Source of the DNA: a virus
Length of the DNA stretch: 41,736 bases
Reading direction: 5' to 3' (one strand)
Virus record (IMG/VR): IMGVR_UViG_3300045988_047176
Positions 3,153-39,229 of the stretch are shown here, piece by piece; the first letter of the stretch is position 1; every line of letters begins with the position of its first letter. The notes under the pieces are model-generated. The model was not told the origin of the DNA and did no database searches. It worked only from the letters and a program-made list of their open reading frames with translations. A program made the translations under genes and the position numbers.

Positions 3153-3530
3153 ATGGAAGTGCCGTATTTCAAGATAAACGGAACGGACATTCTGCCTTGG
3201 GTAGAAACAAACGGAATACAGTGGAAGCGCAACGATTTAGACAGTGACAAGTCAGGGCGCACAATGGACGGGACTATGCATCGAGGCCGAGTAGCAATCA
3301 AATACACGGTCAACATTACGTGTCTTCCTCTGCGCCGCGCCGATGAAATAAAGCTAATGCAGCTGATACTTCCAGAGTTTGTTACCGTGGACACAAATCT
3401 ACACCCGCTGTATTCGGCATACTCCGCGCAGTATTACTCCAACAATGTGCCGGCTACTATTTCTGCGGTTGACCCGATAAGCGGGGAAACAGTGTGGGCG
3501 GACATCACATTCCCGCTTGTGGAAAAATAA
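3153..3530 (+). CDS. Minor tail protein (possible minimal distal tail protein)
   Basis: 125 aa and immediately downstream of the tape measure, 2 nt after its stop. The call is based on position only. Confidence 0.45.
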   Translation: MEVPYFKINGTDILPWVETNGIQWKRNDLDSDKSGRTMDGTMHRGRVAIKYTVNITCLPLRRADEIKLMQLILPEFVTVDTNLHPLYSAYSAQYYSNNVPATISAVDPISGETVWADITFPLVEK

Positions 3531-18159: not shown

Positions 18160-18188
18160 TTGACAGCCGGAAAAATTCCGGCTATAAT
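18160..18188 (+). promoter_or_regulatory. Rightward early promoter with consensus sigma-70 elements
   Basis: TTGACA (18160-18165), a 17-nt spacer, then TATAAT (18183-18188). Both hexamers are consensus. It faces the cro-like gene. Confidence 0.8.
18166..18182. promoter_or_regulatory. Operator O2, filling the promoter spacer exactly
   Basis: GCCGGAA-AAA-TTCCGGC has perfect 7-bp arms and occupies all 17 nt between the -35 and -10 elements. Confidence 0.65.
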
Positions 18189-18352
18189 GACATCAAGGGC
18201 TTAAACAAGGCAACAAAAAACCACACCCCCATCGCGCTCCATCGCTTTGCGGGATTATAACCGATATTTTGTTGGCTGTCACCTACATAATAACGGGTGG
18301 TTAAGCGTTTGTCAAGTTAAAGTTCTTAATATTGATAAGGAGGGATAAACGC

Positions 18353-18550
18353 TTGACGTTAAAGGAACTCAGGCTTGCGGCTGGATTGCAGCAAGCCGAT
18401 GTCGCAAAGAAACTGAACGTCACTATTACGGCGGTTTCAAATTGGGAACTTGGCAAGAACGCAATTTTGCGGAAGTACCACAAGAAGCTGGCGAAGCTGT
18501 ATGGCGTGAAGGTGGAGGAGCTGATGGGGACGATGATGGAGGGTCAATGA
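18353..18550 (+). CDS. Cro-like XRE-family HTH regulator
   Basis: TTG at 18353 lies 8 nt after an AAGGAGGG RBS (the track's TTG at 18332 lies upstream of the RBS). LTLKELRLAAGLQQADVAKKLNVTITAVSNWELGKN is a classic HTH_3 motif. Confidence 0.75.
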   Translation: MTLKELRLAAGLQQADVAKKLNVTITAVSNWELGKNAILRKYHKKLAKLYGVKVEELMGTMMEGQ

Positions 18551-18990
18551 TTTTTGCTACATGGCGGCAGGGTTGCCGGTATGTGGCCGACGCGCAAAAG
18601 GTCTATGAAGAAATAACGGCCATCGGCGCAGCGGCCACAACAAAGCAGATTTTGGACAAGGCACGAGATGAAAACACTGAGCTTCACAAGTGCTTTGACT
18701 GGAACGACACGGAAGCTGCTGAAAAGTGGCGGATGCATCAGGCGCGAAATATCGCTTGCAGCCTTGTCATTAAGGAGACCAAAAGTGAAAGTAGCCCGCC
18801 GGTGCGGTTGTTTTACCAAACAGACAGCGAAAGCGGGTATAAGCCGACGGTTCTTATTATGCAAAACAAGGGCGAATATCAGAAGTTGCTTGCCAGGGCG
18901 CTGGCAGAATTGAGAAGTTTTCAAGCCAAGTACAAGACTTTGACGGAGCTTGACGGCGTATTTGATGCCATTGAGCAGCTTGCGGGGTAA
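18547..18990 (+). CDS. Hypothetical early protein (147 aa)
   Basis: The ATG overlaps the cro-like stop (ATGA). It contains ...ELHKCFDWNDTEAAEKWRMHQARNIA..., a motif I recall from phage early proteins but cannot name. Confidence 0.5.
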   Translation: MIFATWRQGCRYVADAQKVYEEITAIGAAATTKQILDKARDENTELHKCFDWNDTEAAEKWRMHQARNIACSLVIKETKSESSPPVRLFYQTDSESGYKPTVLIMQNKGEYQKLLARALAELRSFQAKYKTLTELDGVFDAIEQLAG

Positions 18991-18997
18991 TTTCAAA

Positions 18998-19108
18998 GCG
19001 GTAAGCAGAAACAGGGGCGCGTAGCTCCAAAGGATAGTACAGCACGATACAATGCAACGCACTACACTACACTATAGAACACTACACGCTTCTGTTTCTG
19101 CTTACCGC
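18998..19108. repeat. Long hairpin H1: 17-bp perfect inverted repeat with a 77-nt A+C-rich loop
   Basis: GCGGTAAGCAGAAACAG (18998-19014) pairs with CTGTTTCTGCTTACCGC (19092-19108). The loop contains the motifs CACTACACTACACTATAG and ACACTACAC. Confidence 0.9.
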
Positions 19109-19166
19109 AGACGATAGTACATGTCAGCGCATAACAACAAATTACCCGACAGCACAAAACAACATC

Positions 19167-19280
19167 GTGCGCTTGCTGTGGCTTATGAATGCCACAGAGC
19201 AAAGCAACCGAAAGAACACCACAAAACAAGACACTACACAACAGCACAGGGCACTATAGCATAAGCCACAGCAAGCGCAC
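19167..19280. repeat. Long hairpin H2: 21-bp perfect inverted repeat with a 72-nt A+C-rich, T-poor loop
   Basis: GTGCGCTTGCTGTGGCTTATG (19167-19187) pairs with CATAAGCCACAGCAAGCGCAC (19260-19280). The loop contains ACACTACACAACAGCACAGGGCACTATAG. Confidence 0.9.
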
Positions 19281-19305
19281 GAACAAATTAAGGAGGAAAA
19301 GAAAA

Positions 19306-19941
19306 ATGAAGAAGGAGCGCATTATTGAAGTTCAGCCTGTGAGAATTGAGCAGGCCACCGTTCTGATCGAGGGCGACGGCGACCTTGTGTTAAACAAGAT
19401 GAACGCTCGTACTGTCCGCGAGTTGACCGCTGCCCGCGATGGCAAAAAGACCATCAAGGAAGTTCCCAACATTTGGGAGGACATTATCACAGCCATCCAC
19501 TGGCGGGACGGATACCCCTGCGAGGATACATACCGAGGCATGACCGAGGAAACGCTGCGGGATATGCTGGCGAACAACGCGCCGTGCATTACCGGGTTTG
19601 GGCTGAAAAAGTCCTTCTGTCAGGCAGTCGTGCGAAACGAGATCGACACTTACGCGACGAAGTTTGACAACGCCATGAATGTAACGGCAAGACTGGAACC
19701 TATTAAGTTTGCGGAGCATTTTGTTGACAAAACGCTGATGTCTCCGAAGCGCGGCGCACCTGTGCTGGTGTACATCAATCGGTTTTCCGGGTGGTCATCG
19801 CAAATCCACATTACATACACCGAGAATGTTTACTCTCTCGACCAGATCGTGAACATCATCAATATGGCCGGCTTTGGCTTGGGTATTGGTTCTGGACGCT
19901 CCAGCGGTTATGGAAGATACCACGTTGTCGATGTGAAATAA
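19306..19941 (+). CDS. Hypothetical early protein with a C-terminal Gly-rich loop (211 aa)
   Basis: ATG follows an AAGGAGGAAAAG RBS; the track's upstream extension runs through the hairpin region. The C-terminus reads ...NMAGFGLGIGSGRSSGYGRYHVVDVK. Confidence 0.6.
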   Translation: MKKERIIEVQPVRIEQATVLIEGDGDLVLNKMNARTVRELTAARDGKKTIKEVPNIWEDIITAIHWRDGYPCEDTYRGMTEETLRDMLANNAPCITGFGLKKSFCQAVVRNEIDTYATKFDNAMNVTARLEPIKFAEHFVDKTLMSPKRGAPVLVYINRFSGWSSQIHITYTENVYSLDQIVNIINMAGFGLGIGSGRSSGYGRYHVVDVK

Positions 19942-20145: not shown

Positions 20146-20231
20146 GTTGGTTTGCATGGGCGCTGGCGGTTATCGGCGCGGCGTGGCTGAGCTGGGCTAT
20201 CGTCAAGGGCGTGGAGGCGCTGGGGAGATGA
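20142..20231 (+). CDS. Possible 29-aa membrane peptide (MSWFAWALAVIGAAWLSWAIVKGVEALGR)
   Basis: An AGGAGGA RBS lies 5 nt upstream. The peptide has a hydrophobic helix, and its stop overlaps the next ATG (ATGA). Confidence 0.45.
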   Translation: MSWFAWALAVIGAAWLSWAIVKGVEALGR

Positions 20232-20728
20232 GGGAGAGGAACAGGCGGGCGCGGGAATACTCCCGCCGCTGCCGGCTTCTCCGCTGGCGCAGGCGGCTGT
20301 GGGCGGTGGCGATCATCCTATGGATGGCGCTGGCGGCGGCGATCAGCTGGACAATGACCCGCCCCGCGCCGCAGGAAGCGCCGCCGGTGCTGTCCCCGGC
20401 CACAGCGGAAGTTTTTGCCCCGCCGCACGAACCCTCCGAAACGCTGCTGATCTGCGACATCACCGGCTATTGTGCTTGCTGTACGCCCTATGCCCACATG
20501 AACCAGCGGGACGGCAAGGTGCTGACGGCATCCGGGCGTTGGGTGAACATCGGCGAGGCGGTGGCGGTAGACCCGGACGTTATCCCGCTGGGCAGCACCG
20601 TGACGCTGGGCGGCAAGACTTACATCGCAGCCGATACCGGGGTGTACGGCTACACGGTGGACGTGCTTATGAGCCACGAGGACGCAGCGCAGGCCGGTGT
20701 TGTGAAAGCGCTGGTGAAGTGGGGGTGA
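20228..20728 (+). CDS. Membrane-anchored 3D-domain protein (MltA/YuiC-like peptidoglycan-lytic fold)
   Basis: It has an Arg-rich N-terminus and a TM segment (LWAVAIILWMALAAAISW). ITGYCACC...GKVLTASG...GEAVAVDPDVIPLGSTV...YIAADTG...VDVLM matches the 3D (Asp-Asp-Asp) domain pattern. The start could instead be TTG at 20147. Confidence 0.65.
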   Translation: MRERNRRAREYSRRCRLLRWRRRLWAVAIILWMALAAAISWTMTRPAPQEAPPVLSPATAEVFAPPHEPSETLLICDITGYCACCTPYAHMNQRDGKVLTASGRWVNIGEAVAVDPDVIPLGSTVTLGGKTYIAADTGVYGYTVDVLMSHEDAAQAGVVKALVKWG

Positions 20729-20946
20729 TCGGGCTGGTGAACCGGACGGCTCCGCCCTGCAAGGGCTGCCAGCGCAGACACGCGATGTGCCACGGGGAGT
20801 GCGAGGACTACAAAGCGTTCCGGCGGGCCGTACAGGCCGACAAGGCGAAACGCTACGCATCGTACAGCGAGGCTGATTTTTACAGCATGAACAGCGCAAG
20901 ACGAGAGAGCGCCAAAAAGGCGATAAGAAAGAGGGATGGAAGATGA
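20725..20946 (+). CDS. Small Cys-rich (zinc-finger-like) protein
   Basis: The GTG start overlaps the upstream stop (GTGA). 73 aa with PPCKGCQRRHAMCHGECEDY. The longer track ORF starting at 20299 lies out of frame inside the 3D-domain gene (20228..20728). Confidence 0.5.
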   Translation: MIGLVNRTAPPCKGCQRRHAMCHGECEDYKAFRRAVQADKAKRYASYSEADFYSMNSARRESAKKAIRKRDGR

Positions 20947-21779
20947 AGGCTTACAAGGCAACAGACAAGGACATGAAATGCCGTGGGTTCCAGTATGAGC
21001 TTGGCAAGACGGAGGAGGTTGACGGAGACGCTAAACTCTGCGAAAGAGGTCTCCACGTCTGCGAAATGCCATTGGATGTTCTGGGTTACTACGCGCCCGG
21101 TGATGGCTCCCGGTATTTCGAAGCGGAGCTGGAGGATGTCAGCGATGAGATGCACAGTGATGACACGAAGCGCGTTGGCAAGAAACTGACTTTGAGCGCG
21201 GAGATCGGTATTCCGGGGTTGGTCAAGGCGCAGGTGGAGTACGTGAAAGCGCAGTGTGATTTTGACAATGTTATCAAAAAGGCGAACAGCGAAAAGAAAA
21301 ACCACGCCACCGGCAATAGGGGCGCAGCATCCGCCACCGGCTGGAGGGGCGCAGCATCCGCCACCGGCGAGAGTGGCGCAGCATCCGCCACCGGCAATAG
21401 TGGCGCAGCATCCGCCACCGGCAATAGTGGCGCAGCATCCGCCACCGGCTGGAGTGGCGCAGCATCCGCCACCGGCGAGAGTGGCGCAGCATCCGCCACC
21501 GGCGATAGGGGCGCAGCATCCGCCACCGGCAATAGTGGCGCAGCATCCGCCACCGGCAATAGGGGCGCAGCATCCGCCACCGGCAAATACTGTGTGGCTA
21601 TGACAACCGGATTTTTTGGCCGCGTTATGGGCGATATCGGCAACGCTATTGTCTGCGTAGAGCGTAGTGATAATGGAGATATCGCCGCCATCCTTTCTGG
21701 CATCGTGGATGGTGAAACGCTGAAACCCGGCGTGTGGTACACCGTTAAGAACGGCCAATGGGTGGAGGTACAGGGATGA
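20943..21779 (+). CDS. Nonapeptide-repeat protein (N-terminal Cys-containing domain, 10 x GAASATGxx, C-terminal beta domain)
   Basis: 278 aa. The N-terminus is MKAYKATDKDMKCRGFQYELGKTEE...CERGLHVCEMPLDVLGYY, a domain I recall from phage proteins of unknown function. The repeats follow, and the C-terminus reads ...GETLKPGVWYTVKNGQWVEV. Confidence 0.7.
   Translation: MKAYKATDKDMKCRGFQYELGKTEEVDGDAKLCERGLHVCEMPLDVLGYYAPGDGSRYFEAELEDVSDEMHSDDTKRVGKKLTLSAEIGIPGLVKAQVEYVKAQCDFDNVIKKANSEKKNHATGNRGAASATGWRGAASATGESGAASATGNSGAASATGNSGAASATGWSGAASATGESGAASATGDRGAASATGNSGAASATGNRGAASATGKYCVAMTTGFFGRVMGDIGNAIVCVERSDNGDIAAILSGIVDGETLKPGVWYTVKNGQWVEVQG
21321..21590 (+). repeat. Ten tandem 27-bp units: an invariant 21-nt core plus a variable 6-nt block
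   Basis: The core GGCGCAGCATCCGCCACCGGC is identical in all ten units. The variable blocks, in order, are TGGAGG, GAGAGT, AATAGT, AATAGT, TGGAGT, GAGAGT, GATAGG, AATAGT, AATAGG, AAATAC. A partial unit lies at 21303-21320. Confidence 0.95.
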
Positions 21780-22294
21780 ACCGATTGAAGGAGAGGCGGC
21801 TGGAGCTGGGTCTGACGCAGGAGGCGGTCAGCGGCATTCTGAAGCTGGCAGACGCACGGATGGACGTGAGCATGGTGAGCCGGTTTGAAAACGGCGTGTG
21901 CCTGCCCACGGAGGAAGTCACCGAGGCGCTGGAGGCGGCGCTGCGGGCCGGCAGGGCGTATCTGTTCGGCGAGGACGAGAAAGCCGAATTGCCCATGCGG
22001 ACGGCGGAGACAGAGCGGATCGCCGGTCTGATCCCCAAGGGGCGGAGGAACGCCATCAGCCGGGAAGATCTGGCGGCGGCGCTGCACACCACCGACCGGA
22101 AGATGCGAAAGGCCGTGGCCGAGGCAAAGACGCAGGGCGTGATGATCTGCAACGACGGGGACGGGTACTACCAGAGCGACGAGCTGAGCGACCTGTGGCG
22201 GCAATACAGGCGGGAGACGGCGCGGGCTAAGTCTATCCTAAAGGCGCGGAAGCCTATGCGGGACGTGCTGAAAGCGGCTGGGAGGCTGGTATGA
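21776..22294 (+). CDS. XRE-type HTH protein with a C-terminal winged-helix-like domain
   Basis: The ATG overlaps the upstream stop. 172 aa. The N-terminus is LKERRLELGLTQEAVSGIL...VSRFENG. Confidence 0.55.
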   Translation: MNRLKERRLELGLTQEAVSGILKLADARMDVSMVSRFENGVCLPTEEVTEALEAALRAGRAYLFGEDEKAELPMRTAETERIAGLIPKGRRNAISREDLAAALHTTDRKMRKAVAEAKTQGVMICNDGDGYYQSDELSDLWRQYRRETARAKSILKARKPMRDVLKAAGRLV

Positions 22295-38771: not shown

Positions 38772-38791
38772 TTGGAAAGGAGCTGGCTCAC

Positions 38792-39229
38792 ATGACATAC
38801 GCTGATTACGACTATTACTCCGGGATCTATTTGGGCATCGTGAGCGAGGAGGATTTTCCGCGCCTGGCTGTACGAGCCAGCTCCTTTCTCGACTACTACA
38901 CGCAGAACCGGGCAAAAGATAACGCTGATATGTATGCTGTAAAAATGTGCTGCTGTGCACTTGTGGACAAGTATCAGCTGATCGAAGCTGCGCAGCAGCT
39001 TGCCGCAACCAAACTGACGAACGCGGCGACCGGCGATGAAGTGAAAAGCGAAACGGTAGGCGGGTACTCCCGGACGCTGGCCAGCGGCGGCGAAGCTGCC
39101 GCGTCCGCACTAAGCGCTACGGACGGTGCGAAGAAACTGCTGGCGGCGACCTGTAACGAGTATCTGGCGCATACTGGTCTGCTGTATCGGGGAGGGGGGT
39201 GCTGTGGTTGTACGCGCCCCACACTATAA
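38792..39229 (+). CDS. Head-tail connector or adaptor protein
   Basis: 145 aa and the first gene after the major capsid protein. The N-terminus, YADYDYYSGIY.G....EDFPRLAVRASSFLDYYT, resembles gp6-like connectors. Confidence 0.6.
   Translation: MTYADYDYYSGIYLGIVSEEDFPRLAVRASSFLDYYTQNRAKDNADMYAVKMCCCALVDKYQLIEAAQQLAATKLTNAATGDEVKSETVGGYSRTLASGGEAAASALSATDGAKKLLAATCNEYLAHTGLLYRGGGCCGCTRPTL

What the first reader, a model, noticed from the sequence alone, without database searches (positions are those of the whole stretch)
18991..19305. Twin long hairpins in a 315-bp strongly A+C-rich, T-poor non-coding region between early genes
Seen directly: two perfect inverted repeats share the same architecture. 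H1 has 17-bp arms at 18998-19014 and 19092-19108 with a 77-nt loop. H2 has 21-bp arms at 19167-19187 and 19260-19280 with a 72-nt loop. The loops and the linker are dominated by A and C. I count only about 4-5 T in the 72-nt H2 loop. They carry reiterated CACTACA(C) and CACTATAG motifs, and GATAGTACA occurs shortly after the left arm of H1 and after its right arm. The track ORFs here (19189.. on the + strand and 19062-19247 on the minus strand) are artefacts of this composition.

Four readings are possible:
- A phage origin or recombination-dependent replication start, given that Sak, YqaJ, NinB and SSB lie downstream.
- A structured non-coding RNA.
- A C-rich, G-poor Rho-loading or antitermination checkpoint between immediate-early and delayed-early genes.
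- A processing substrate for the downstream protein.

None of these is established.
Basis: partly seen in the sequence, partly recalled or inferred. Interest (0 to 1): 0.65.

Follow-up and report, generated by a model that had tools for sequence, protein, structure and literature searches.

The report
Stem-clamped guide RNAs of a phage VIPR system
The two long hairpins are real RNA structures. Their loops are arrays of five-base repeats (A-Y-A-N-N) that most likely serve as guide RNAs for the neighbouring Cas7-like protein, making this a G-less, hairpin-enclosed variant of the recently described phage VIPR RNA-guided system.

Summary
H1 (18998-19024 / 19082-19108) and H2 (19165-19187 / 19260-19282) are the two strongest long-range stems in the 41.7-kb window.

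In 101 related loci, the same kind of hairpin (stem 21-39 bp, loop 42-193 nt) always lies between two conserved genes. These are a 147-aa protein (18547-18990) and a 211-aa protein with a RAMP/Cas7-like fold (19306-19941).

- Stems show compensatory changes and four times more G·U than A·C mismatches. This points to pairing in the + strand transcript.
- Loops are hypervariable but are phased pentamer arrays with consensus A-(C/U/A)-A-N-N, median 15 units.
- More distant homologues of both proteins flank unclamped (G-G-Y-N-N)n arrays. One is the homologous protein gp040 of phage SUSP2, the sister of SUSP1.

This matches the VIPR system described in two 2026 bioRxiv preprints. There, Vipr protomers bind one pentamer each, hide the GGY bases and present the NN bases to DNA.

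The residues reported to read the two guanines (H17, D177, W178) are kept in the G-type clade. In the window clade they are replaced by invariant N30, S196 and G197.

The G-less repeat, the stem clamp and the accessory-protein family are not mentioned in the preprint text I could read. No convincing target was found.

The parts
18160..18188 (+). Early rightward sigma-70-type promoter (TTGACA-17-TATAAT, 12/12). It probably drives the transcript that carries cro, the vap-like gene, the hairpins and vipr.
   Evidence: Promoter scan and sequence. It faces a near-identical promoter on the - strand (18282-18254). Together these gave a spurious 'stem'.
18547..18990 (+). 147-aa accessory protein ('p148'), a candidate Vipr-accessory (vap) gene of an undescribed family.
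   Evidence: Lies directly upstream of the hairpin array in 98 of 101 loci, while other neighbours vary. Matches phrog_15946 of unknown function. No Pfam, NCBIfam, PADLOC or PDB sequence hit. The family has 10,611 representative clusters. Not homologous to SUSP2 gp039. The AF2 model is poor.
18998..19024 (+). H1 5' arm.
   Evidence: Sequence conserved in L001-L027. G·U pairs have G on this arm.
19025..19081 (+). H1 loop: a vrRNA-like tract of about 11 phased pentamers (AAAGG ATAGT ACAGC ACGAT ACAAT GCAAC GCACT ACACT ACACT ATAGA ACA..).
   Evidence: Phase analysis: all 5 ACA triplets fall in one phase. Pentamer score 28 against a window mean of -20, sd 8. The loop is hypervariable among relatives.
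19082..19108 (+). H1 3' arm.
   Evidence: Compensatory allele at the apical end in relatives: GGGGCTTGAA/TTCAAGCTTC versus GGGGCGCGTAG/CTACACGCTTC.
19109..19164 (+). H1-H2 linker. It is also pentamer-phased (ATAGT ACATG TCAGC GCATA ACAAC AAATT ACCCG ACAGC ACAAA ACAAC) but occurs as a few conserved alleles.
   Evidence: Pentamer score 28.4. Alleles can be seen. Whether it is a third guide is not known.
19165..19187 (+). H2 5' arm. Its apical part (CTGTGGC) can also pair locally with the first loop bases (GCCACAG).
   Evidence: The local mini-hairpin is enriched across 56 unrelated hairpins: mean 5.8 bp against 4.0 for shuffled and 4.1 on the mirror side.
19188..19259 (+). H2 loop: a vrRNA-like tract of about 14 phased pentamers (.. 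ACACC ACAAA ACAAG ACACT ACACA ACAGC ACAGG GCACT ATAG).
   Evidence: 7 of 9 ACA triplets fall in one phase. Pentamer score 33.4, the window maximum. Loop length is 62-136 nt and the sequence is unrelated in phages that share the same stem.
19260..19282 (+). H2 3' arm.
   Evidence: In 8 variants, 5 stem positions change on one side only and all keep pairing through G·U.
19290..19296 (+). Ribosome-binding site AAGGAGG of the vipr-like gene. The hairpin does not sequester it.
   Evidence: Sequence.
19306..19941 (+). 211-aa Vipr-like RAMP protein (Cas7-like fold, G-rich loop GIGSGRSSGYG at residues 193-203).
   Evidence: AF2 pLDDT 86, pTM 0.80. Foldseek hits to Csm3, Cmr4, Cmr6 and Cas7-11 with probability 1.0 and E down to 6.5e-6. 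hhalign to the G-type clade gives 99.8%, E 8e-28. That clade to SUSP2 gp040 gives 97.9%, E 4e-13. Specificity residues are N30, S196, G197, R198.

Best explanation
The 315-bp 'non-coding' region encodes two, possibly three, guide RNAs of a phage VIPR (Viral Interference Programmable Repeat) system. They lie between its accessory gene (18547-18990) and its RAMP gene vipr (19306-19941).

**Proposed mechanism**
1. The region is transcribed rightward from the early promoter at 18160-18188 as part of the cro operon.
2. In the RNA, each 23-27-bp stem clamps a 57-72-nt single-stranded loop made of 11-14 phased pentamers A-(C/U/A)-A-N-N.
3. By homology with the published system, one Vipr protomer binds each pentamer. 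It sequesters the conserved A-Y-A triplet and presents the two variable bases.
4. The concatenated NN dinucleotides then form a non-contiguous guide that recognises double-stranded DNA, and binding represses the target.
5. In this clade, the residues that read the two guanines of the canonical GGY triplet are replaced by N30, S196 and G197. This fits the G-less repeat.
6. The conserved long stems play the part of the invariant handle. They are also long enough to be RNase III substrates that would release each guide from the operon transcript.

**Shown here**
- The structure and its strand.
- The periodicity and its consensus.
- The three-part synteny.
- The RAMP fold and the homology chain to SUSP2 gp040.
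- The residue-repeat co-variation.

**Inferred only**
- Binding by Vipr.
- DNA targeting and the skip rule in this clade.
- RNase III processing.
- The identity of the target.
For: 1. **Real, strand-specific structure.**
   - H1 and H2 are the top stems in the window, with z = -11.
   - There are 154 unique stems in 101 loci, falling into 56 unrelated sequence clusters with the same architecture.
   - G·U outnumbers A·C by 456 to 111 under symmetric scoring.
   - Within homologous stems, 26 positions show two-sided compensatory changes and 38 show one-sided G·U-type changes.
2. **Pentamer arrays in the loops.**
   - Base identity at lags 5, 10, 15 and 20 is 0.44-0.45. At lags 1, 4, 6 and 9 it is 0.24-0.26, and 0.316 is expected.
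   - 75% of ACA triplets lie in one phase, against 44% in shuffles. The PWM is A 0.69 / C,U,A / A 0.78 / N / N.
   - The consensus is the same in three clades.
   - The median is 15 units per loop. The published range is 9-16.
3. **Conserved module.** p148, then hairpins, then RAMP in 98 of 101 loci. The arrangement persists at 31% RAMP identity.
4. **RAMP fold**.
5. **Link to published VIPR.**
   - Distant homologues (hhalign 99.8%) flank 150-780-nt (GGYNN)n arrays.
   - 141 of 160 loci across many phyla have a 5-nt periodic segment next to the gene.
   - That clade matches SUSP2 gp040, whose locus carries YNNGG tracts, as described for SUSP1 VIPR.
6. **Residue-repeat co-variation.** The companion structure paper assigns G1 to H17 and D177, and G2 to R138 and W178.
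   - Loci with H plus (E/D)W carry G-rich arrays (about 90 loci).
   - Loci with N plus SG, TR or SR carry A-rich arrays (74 loci).
   - There are two exceptions.
Against: - No RNA, binding or targeting data exist for this clade.
- The direct profile match of the window clade to SUSP2 gp040 is weak (37%, E 3.6e-4), so membership rests on a transitive link.
- The defining GGY (or any conserved G) consensus is absent.
- The accessory protein is unrelated to SUSP2 gp039 and has no recognisable DNA-binding domain.
- Applying the published 1-nt-skip rule gave no convincing natural target:
  - The local search gave as many hits for real as for shuffled guides.
  - H2 seeds did not extend.
  - The H1 match to hamB is no better than a chance hit in an unrelated marine bacterium.
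- G·T pairs are also tolerated in single-stranded DNA, so the G·U excess alone does not exclude a DNA hairpin.
- 44% of in-phase pentamers depart from A-H-A, so the tracts are degenerate.
Confidence: 0.78

Rival explanations
1. The hairpins are a cis-acting leader that autoregulates the downstream gene. The RAMP protein, or p148, coats the phased A-Y-A triplets of its own mRNA, much as TRAP binds (G/U)AG-NN repeats, and so controls RNA folding, stability or translation. No trans guide function is involved.
For: - The array lies immediately 5' of the gene, and the last stem ends 23 nt before the ATG.
- Alternative pairing of the 5' arm apex with the start of the loop is enriched, as in attenuators.
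- No target was found.
Against: - The RBS is not sequestered.
- Up to five hairpins per locus with hypervariable NN positions exceed what autoregulation needs.
- In the G-type clade the array lies downstream of the RAMP gene.
- The homologous SUSP1 system produces discrete trans-acting RNAs.
Confidence: 0.08
2. The RAMP-RNA filament is a decoy or sponge. It sequesters host RNA-guided or RNA-sensing defence components, for example type III CRISPR subunits, and does not recognise DNA. This is what has been proposed for type IV-B complexes.
For: - Cas7-like fold.
- Immediate-early position, typical of counter-defence genes.
- Precedent hypothesis for type IV-B.
- Lack of identifiable targets.
Against: - A sponge would not need hypervariable NN positions framed by a conserved triplet.
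- Homologous systems have demonstrated sequence-programmed DNA binding.
Confidence: 0.06
3. The hairpins act at the DNA level as + strand single-stranded DNA hairpins. They would serve as a replication or recombination start, for example a primosome or SSB/Sak loading site.
For: - G·T is the most tolerated DNA mismatch, so the strand asymmetry is compatible with ssDNA.
- The Sak gene lies 3 kb downstream.
Against: - Only p148 and the RAMP gene are conserved neighbours. Sak and replication genes are not.
- Loops are hypervariable while keeping a 5-nt code that co-varies with RAMP residues.
- RAMPs are RNA-binding proteins.
- The region lies inside a co-oriented early operon with no terminator.
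Confidence: 0.03
4. The loops are Rho-loading (rut) or antitermination sites that gate read-through from immediate-early to delayed-early genes.
For: - The loops are unstructured and G-poor, with C exceeding G.
- Their position downstream of cro resembles that of lambda nutR.
Against: - Loops are 47% A and only about 21% C.
- Phased triplets are not a rut feature.
- Relatives carry G-rich arrays (about 40-48% G) at the equivalent place, the opposite of a rut site.
- No terminator-like site follows.
Confidence: 0.03

Closest known systems
VIPR (Viral Interference Programmable Repeat) systems: Vipr RAMP protein, vap gene and vrRNAs. Sources: bioRxiv 10.64898/2026.04.26.720920 and 10.64898/2026.04.26.720927 (2026).
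   Same: - Phage-encoded minimal locus with one small RAMP protein of about 20 kDa and one accessory gene.
- Adjacent non-coding tracts of tandem pentamers, each with a conserved triplet and two hypervariable bases.
- 9-16 units per RNA in the publication, and 11-14 here.
- Several RNAs per locus.
- A conserved structured part flanking a variable part.
- Protein homology through the G-type clade to SUSP2 gp040.
   Different: - The conserved triplet is A-(C/U/A)-A with no conserved G. The preprint text lists YNNGG, NNNGG, YNNNG and NNNNG.
- Each tract is enclosed by a 21-39-bp stem formed by its own flanks. The published forms are followed by a 3' tail or pseudoknot, are staggered, or are separated by hammerhead ribozymes.
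- The G-reading residues H17, D177 and W178 are replaced by N, S and G.
- The accessory protein is unrelated to SUSP2 gp039.
- No target or skip rule has been established.
- The figures and supplementary data of the preprints were not available to me. The variant could therefore be shown there without being named in the text.
Class 1 CRISPR effector backbones (Cas7: Csm3, Cmr4, Csf2) on crRNA.
   Same: RAMP fold with a G-rich loop. One protomer binds per RNA repeat unit. A variable guide is flanked by a conserved handle.
   Different: - No CRISPR array of direct repeats, and no cas1, cas2, cas5, cas6 or cas10.
- The period is 5 nt, not 6 nt.
- The guide information is non-contiguous.
- The conserved elements are inverted repeats unique to each unit, not direct repeats shared by all units.
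TRAP binding sites in Bacillus trp leaders: 11 (G/U)AG triplets separated by 2-3 nt.
   Same: Phased conserved triplets separated by two non-conserved bases, read by a homo-oligomer with one subunit per triplet.
   Different: - TRAP is a ring of unrelated fold.
- The spacer bases carry no information.
- The site is a cis attenuator.
- This is an analogy only.
RNase III processing stems, such as those flanking 16S and 23S rRNA, phage T7 early mRNA sites and tracrRNA:pre-crRNA.
   Same: Long-range, nearly perfect RNA duplexes of more than 20 bp enclose a functional RNA within a longer transcript.
   Different: Cleavage has not been shown here. This is an inference from stem length alone.

Membership tests
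VIPR system | Vipr protein: a small RAMP with an RRM core and a glycine-rich loop. | tested here: met
   AF2 pLDDT 86. Foldseek hits to Csm3, Cmr4, Cmr6 and Cas7-11 with probability 1.0 and TM about 0.5. GhGxxxxxGhG motif GIGSGRSSGYG at residues 193-203.
VIPR system | Thumb domain that flips the conserved triplet. | not tested
   The beta-hairpin 137-161 of the model aligns with the SUSP2 region that contains R138. The model was not inspected in 3D.
VIPR system | Sequence homology to an experimentally studied Vipr (SUSP1/SUSP2 type). | tested here: inconclusive
   The link is transitive. A1 to A4 gives 99.8%, E 8e-28. A4 to SUSP2 gp040 gives 97.9%, E 4e-13 over 66 C-terminal residues. The direct A1 to gp040 comparison gives only 37%, E 3.6e-4. 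The studied protein is from SUSP1; I compared with its sister phage SUSP2.
VIPR system | Minimal two-gene locus (vipr plus vap) with long flanking non-coding regions, encoded by a phage. | tested here: met
   p148 and RAMP are adjacent in 98 of 101 loci, on IMG/VR contigs and in prophage regions of gut Clostridia MAGs. The window has a cro/repressor switch, Sak and other phage genes.
VIPR system | vrRNA tract: tandem pentanucleotide repeats, 9-16 units, with three conserved and two hypervariable positions. | tested here: met
   Lag-5 periodicity. PWM. 11 and 14 units in the window, median 15.
VIPR system | Repeat consensus GGY/NN, or the listed relatives NNNGG, YNNNG and NNNNG. | tested here: not met
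   The consensus is A-(C/U/A)-A-N-N. G is the rarest base at positions 1-3, at 6-10%. The G-type consensus is found only in more distant homologues.
VIPR system | Conserved structured element capping the variable tract (3' tail or pseudoknot in type II). | tested here: inconclusive
   A conserved structured element exists but has a different form. The 5' and 3' flanks pair with each other into a 21-39-bp stem, and there is a local mini-hairpin at the start of the loop.
VIPR system | vrRNAs expressed as discrete small RNAs of about 100 nt that co-purify with Vipr. | not testable with these tools
   This needs sRNA-seq and pull-down experiments.
VIPR system | NN dinucleotides specify a dsDNA target with a 1-nt skip, and natural targets lie in competing mobile elements. 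| tested here: inconclusive
   The local search gave real hits equal to controls. H2 seeds did not extend. The H1 9-pentamer match to hamB cannot be distinguished from chance.
CRISPR array | Direct repeats of 24-40 nt shared by all units and separated by unique spacers, next to cas genes. | tested here: not met
   The arms are inverted repeats and differ between H1 and H2. No direct-repeat family spans the units. No cas genes other than the RAMP are present.
Rfam families (any described structured RNA) | A score at or above a family's gathering threshold. | tested here: not met
   Only sub-threshold miRNA-like hairpin hits appeared: 32.6 bits against a gathering score of 103. The G-type array gave nothing.
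Rho utilisation (rut) site | C-rich, G-poor, unstructured stretch of about 80 nt with no need for phasing. | tested here: not met
   Loops are A 47%, C about 21%. They carry phased triplets. Homologous positions hold arrays with about 40-48% G.

The most novel reading that the evidence does not exclude
This is an undescribed 'A-type' branch of VIPR. The Vipr protein has switched from reading GGY to reading A-Y-A, through H17 to N, D177 to S or T, and W178 to G or R. Each guide is delivered as a stem-clamped loop processed by host RNase III. At least some guides are aimed at host or prophage-borne defence genes rather than at rival phages. The H1 guide's 18/18 in-frame match to hamB of a type I R-M plus Hachiman island in gut Clostridia would be one example. 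That would make this an RNA-guided anti-defence device expressed from the immediate-early operon.
Probability: 0.12. Interest if true: 0.9.

Novelty: new variant of a known kind. Interest (0 to 1): 0.7.

Why it matters
VIPR was reported only in 2026 as a pre-CRISPR way of recognising DNA, with a gapped RNA code built on GGY/NN repeats.

This window shows that a large clade of phages of gut Clostridia uses a different framing triplet with no guanine. More than 2,300 protein clusters were hit. The clade also encloses each guide in a long stem and pairs the RAMP with a different accessory protein.

The residues known to read the two guanines change in step with the repeat. This natural pair of specificities gives a direct handle on how Vipr recognises its scaffold. 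It also suggests that orthogonal Vipr/vrRNA pairs exist for engineering.

It also means that searches keyed on YNNGG will miss this branch. For genome annotation, A+C-rich 'non-coding' hairpin regions downstream of cro in Clostridia phages can now be read as guide-RNA genes.

Tried and rejected
**Searches that found nothing useful**
- Rfam with permissive thresholds on the window region and on a G-type array: nothing real.
- blastn and tblastn of the region and the RAMP against GenBank phages: no match.
- Pfam, NCBIfam, PADLOC and PDB sequence or profile searches for both proteins: no family.
- Structure prediction of p148: pLDDT 54, too poor to use for a fold search. The idea that it is a Cas11-like small subunit therefore stays untested.

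**Apparent features that were dismissed**
- A third 'hairpin' at 18161-18281 turned out to be two face-to-face promoters with operator palindromes.

**Ideas considered before the periodicity was seen, then dropped**
- Invertible promoter or MITE. There are no dispersed copies, the stems stay at one locus, and the loops are too short.
- Retron or DGR. There is no reverse transcriptase.
- MazF (ACA) decoy. Phasing is not needed for a decoy.
- Hfq (ARN)n. The period is wrong.
- G-quadruplex. This is possible only for the G-type arrays.

**Target search**
- A local gapped search of 174 loops against 1.9 Mb with skips 0-3 gave no excess over shuffled guides. The skip-3 hits were unmasked arrays.
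- The IMG/VR scan with the H2 seed gave 2 chance hits.
- The genome scan with the H2 seed gave 120 or more hits whose flanks match at the chance level.
- The H1 seed gave the hamB lead. It was not corroborated by H2, the linker or any other phage's loops.
- The literature searches before one search returned nothing relevant.
Full report
**1. The observation**

- H1 has the perfect 17-bp core reported. It extends to 27-nt arms (18998-19024 / 19082-19108; 24 Watson-Crick, 2 G·U, 1 A·C) around a 57-nt loop.
- H2 is perfect over 23 bp (19165-19187 / 19260-19282) around a 72-nt loop of A35 C21 G12 T4.
- A symmetric scan of the whole 41.7-kb window finds only five stems scoring at least 12, and H1 and H2 are the two best.
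- A third apparent stem, at 18161-18281, is really two face-to-face sigma-70 promoters with an operator palindrome in each spacer.
- The + strand RNA of 18985-19310 folds at -110 kcal/mol against -59.5 +/- 4.6 for shuffles (z = -11), and the loops remain open.
Homologues of the downstream protein start at the ATG at 19306, behind AAGGAGG.

**2. Context**

The region lies in the early rightward operon of a temperate phage. In order, the operon contains:
- a perfect promoter at 18160-18188;
- a Cro-like HTH gene (18332-18550);
- a 147-aa protein of unknown family (18547-18990, phrog_15946);
- the hairpins;
- a 211-aa protein (19306-19941).

Further downstream are a 3D-domain protein, a DUF7666 repeat protein, an HTH protein and Sak.

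The 211-aa protein has no Pfam, NCBIfam, PADLOC or PDB sequence match. Its C-terminus carries GIGSGRSSGYG, the GhGxxxxxGhG loop of RAMP proteins. A confident model (pLDDT 86) matches Csm3, Cmr4, Cmr6 and Cas7-11 with probability 1.0.

**3. Comparative anatomy**

I collected 101 loci that encode relatives of the 211-aa protein at 53-97% identity. They come from IMG/VR and from gut Clostridia MAGs.
- In 98 of them the 147-aa protein lies directly upstream and the hairpins lie between the two genes. No other neighbour is conserved.
- Loci carry 0-5 hairpins.
- There are 154 unique stems (median 26 bp, range 21-39) and loops of 42-193 nt (median 77).
- The stems fall into 56 sequence clusters with no similarity to one another but the same architecture.
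- When G·U and A·C are penalised equally, the stems contain 456 G·U and 111 A·C. Pairing is therefore selected on the + strand.
- Within homologous stems, 26 positions show two-sided compensatory changes and 38 show one-sided changes that keep pairing. The apex of H1 itself has two compensating alleles.
- For H2, the 23-bp stem is nearly identical in 27 phages, while the loop is 62-136 nt long and unrelated in sequence.

**4. The loops carry a 5-nt code**

In 108 non-redundant loops:
- Base identity is 0.449, 0.445, 0.449 and 0.436 at lags 5, 10, 15 and 20. It is 0.24-0.26 at lags 1, 4, 6 and 9, and 0.316 is expected.
- 75% of ACA triplets lie in one phase, against 44% in shuffles.
- The phased consensus is A (0.69), C/U/A (G only 0.07), A (0.78), N, N.
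- This holds in all three clades, and also in loci whose RAMP is only 31% identical.
- Loops hold a median of 15 pentamers.

In the window only three stretches score high with this matrix. They are the H1 loop, the H1-H2 linker and the H2 loop, at 28-33 against a mean of -20 and sd of 8.

A further asymmetric feature concerns the 5' arm. Its apical 5-8 nt can also pair with the first bases of the loop. The mean is 5.8 bp, against 4.0 for shuffled loops and 4.1 on the mirror side.

**5. Distant relatives identify the system**

Loci found with distant homologues of the 147-aa protein have the order RAMP-like gene, then 150-780 nt of non-coding DNA, then the p148-like gene.
- The gap has no long stems, but it has the same 5-nt periodicity with a G-rich unit (GGC/GGT/GTT-N-N).
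- These RAMPs are homologous to the window clade (hhalign 99.8%, E 8e-28).
- Homologues occur in prophages of many phyla, and 141 of 160 loci have a periodic segment next to the gene.
- A literature search then returned two 2026 preprints that describe exactly this.

What the preprints report:
- VIPR systems consist of a small ancestral RAMP (Vipr), an accessory gene (vap) and vrRNAs.
- Each vrRNA has 9-16 YNNGG repeats plus a structured tail.
- One protomer binds one repeat and hides the GGY bases. The NN bases pair with double-stranded DNA, skipping every third target base.
- Natural targets are competing phages and satellites.

The G-type clade matches gp040 of Escherichia phage SUSP2, sister of the studied SUSP1 (tblastn; hhalign 97.9%, E 4e-13). 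The SUSP2 locus shows YNNGG tracts on both sides of gp040-gp039.

**6. Why this is a variant and not just a member**

- The preprint text lists YNNGG, NNNGG, YNNNG and NNNNG repeats. It lists tails, staggered, ribozyme-interspersed and single architectures. It does not mention a G-less A-Y-A-N-N repeat or tracts clamped by their own flanks.
- The structure paper assigns G1 to H17 and D177, G2 to R138 and W178, and the pyrimidine pocket partly to R179.
- In a joint alignment, the G-type proteins keep H, E/D-W and R. The window clade has invariant N30, S196-G197 and R198. The 31%-identity hairpin clade has N and T-R.
- Over non-redundant loci, H plus (E/D)W goes with G-rich arrays in about 90 cases. 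N plus SG, TR or SR goes with A-rich arrays in 74. There are two exceptions.
- The accessory protein is not homologous to SUSP2 gp039. It belongs to a very large family with no described domain.
- I could not see the preprints' figures or supplementary data. The variant may therefore be depicted there.

**7. Mechanism proposed, and its status**

Shown here:
- A strand-specific structure with conserved clamps and hypervariable loops.
- A phased A-Y-A-N-N code.
- Obligate synteny with a RAMP and a second protein.
- Homology to SUSP2 gp040, the sister of the published SUSP1 Vipr.
- Residue-repeat co-variation.

Inferred from the published homologue:
- Vipr protomers polymerise on each loop.
- The NN bases act as a gapped DNA guide that leads to repression.

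Inferred from stem length alone:
- Host RNase III cuts the 21-39-bp duplexes and frees each guide from the operon RNA. This would take the place of the hammerhead ribozymes or tails of other types.

The conserved linker (19109-19164) is also phased, but it occurs as a few alleles. Its role is open.

**8. Target search**

I decoded guides with the published 1-nt-skip rule.
- **Local search.** 174 loops against 1.9 Mb gave as many hits for real as for shuffled guides.
- **H2.** An 8-pentamer seed gave two IMG/VR hits, and 120 or more hits in genomes. None extends beyond chance.
- **H1.** A 9-pentamer pattern gave 12 genome hits, where about 17 are expected by chance.
  - Four of the 12 are the same site near the 5' end of hamB. 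The gene lies in a type I R-M plus Hachiman island of gut Clostridia, and the skipped base falls on the wobble position.
  - The same gene appears on one IMG/VR contig.
- **Why this is only a lead.**
  - The flanking pentamers do not match.
  - A hit in an unrelated marine Maritalea genome is better (21/22).
  - Neither H2, nor the linker, nor any loop from related phages hits that island.

**9. Verdict**

It is best read as two stem-clamped vrRNA-type guides of a VIPR system that uses an A-Y-A/NN repeat.

The origin and Rho readings are not supported.

The kind of system is known from the 2026 preprints. The repeat consensus, the clamp architecture, the changed base-reading residues and the accessory family make this a new variant.

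Noticed in passing
window 18160-18315: The genetic switch region has a perfect + strand promoter (TTGACA-17-TATAAT, 18160-18188). It faces an 11/12 promoter on the - strand (18282-18254). The + strand spacer holds the palindrome GCCGGAAAAATTCCGGC, with a degenerate inverted copy in the - strand promoter. A second - strand promoter lies at 18315-18287. The two facing promoters would give convergent transcripts that overlap by about 50 nt.
   Followed up: partly
L349, L350, L354, L358 (genome contigs) and L487:4190-10953 (IMG/VR): A type I R-M (with an integrase next to duplicated hsdS genes) plus a Hachiman hamA-hamB island is shared by several gut Clostridia and one 'viral' contig. Codons about 78-86 of hamB match the NN code of the window's H1 guide 18/18 under the 1-nt-skip rule, but the match is not statistically distinguishable from chance.
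   Followed up: partly
L176:2070-2500, L177:1866-2500, L182:1723-2500 and many of L185-L344: The G-type arrays run uninterrupted for 150-900 nt, far longer than one 9-16-unit vrRNA. They contain recurrent one-base phase slips at GGCAGGC. This suggests several guides set head to tail or staggered, with GGCAGGC as a possible boundary mark.
   Followed up: no
L061 and L096, about 2830-2990: These two loci have a single hybrid unit. It joins the 5' arm of the first hairpin of their relatives to the 3' arm of the last, which are not complementary. This looks like a deletion by recombination between units and shows how arrays shrink.
   Followed up: no
L042:117-689 and 800-1375: One locus has four hairpins upstream of the RAMP gene and the p148-like gene downstream of it (at 1626). 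It is an intermediate gene order between the window type and the G-type.
   Followed up: no
window 20943-21779: The DUF7666 protein has about 13 tandem heptapeptide repeats (GAASATG with variants). The repeat creates long spurious ORFs in other frames and on the opposite strand (20880-21758, 21089-22204).
   Followed up: no
window 20150-20450: G+C jumps to 0.68-0.73 over about 300 nt, against about 0.45-0.55 on either side. The stretch covers the N-terminal third of the 3D-domain protein (20147-20728). It is a compositional island of unknown origin.
   Followed up: no
window 38775-38789 / 38874-38888: A perfect 15-bp inverted repeat (GAAAGGAGCTGGCTC) with an 84-nt spacer of even base composition. 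It was not examined further.
   Followed up: no
window 18547-18990 and alignment A3: The accessory protein belongs to a very large family with no Pfam model: 10,611 representative clusters at E <= 1e-3. Its conserved core is ELHKCFEWDD..AAEKYR..QAR. Distant members are found next to both A-type and G-type arrays.
   Followed up: partly
L347 (SUSP2) 1770-2010 and 3185-3440: In SUSP2, three of the four YNNGG tracts are preceded by a short palindrome (ATCACTTAA..TTAAGTGAT or CCTTTTTAAAAGG). All are followed by a tail (GGGTAG..GCTAC or GGCAGTAGCC). The published type therefore also has structured elements on both sides of the tract, and these could be the evolutionary counterpart of the clamp.
   Followed up: no
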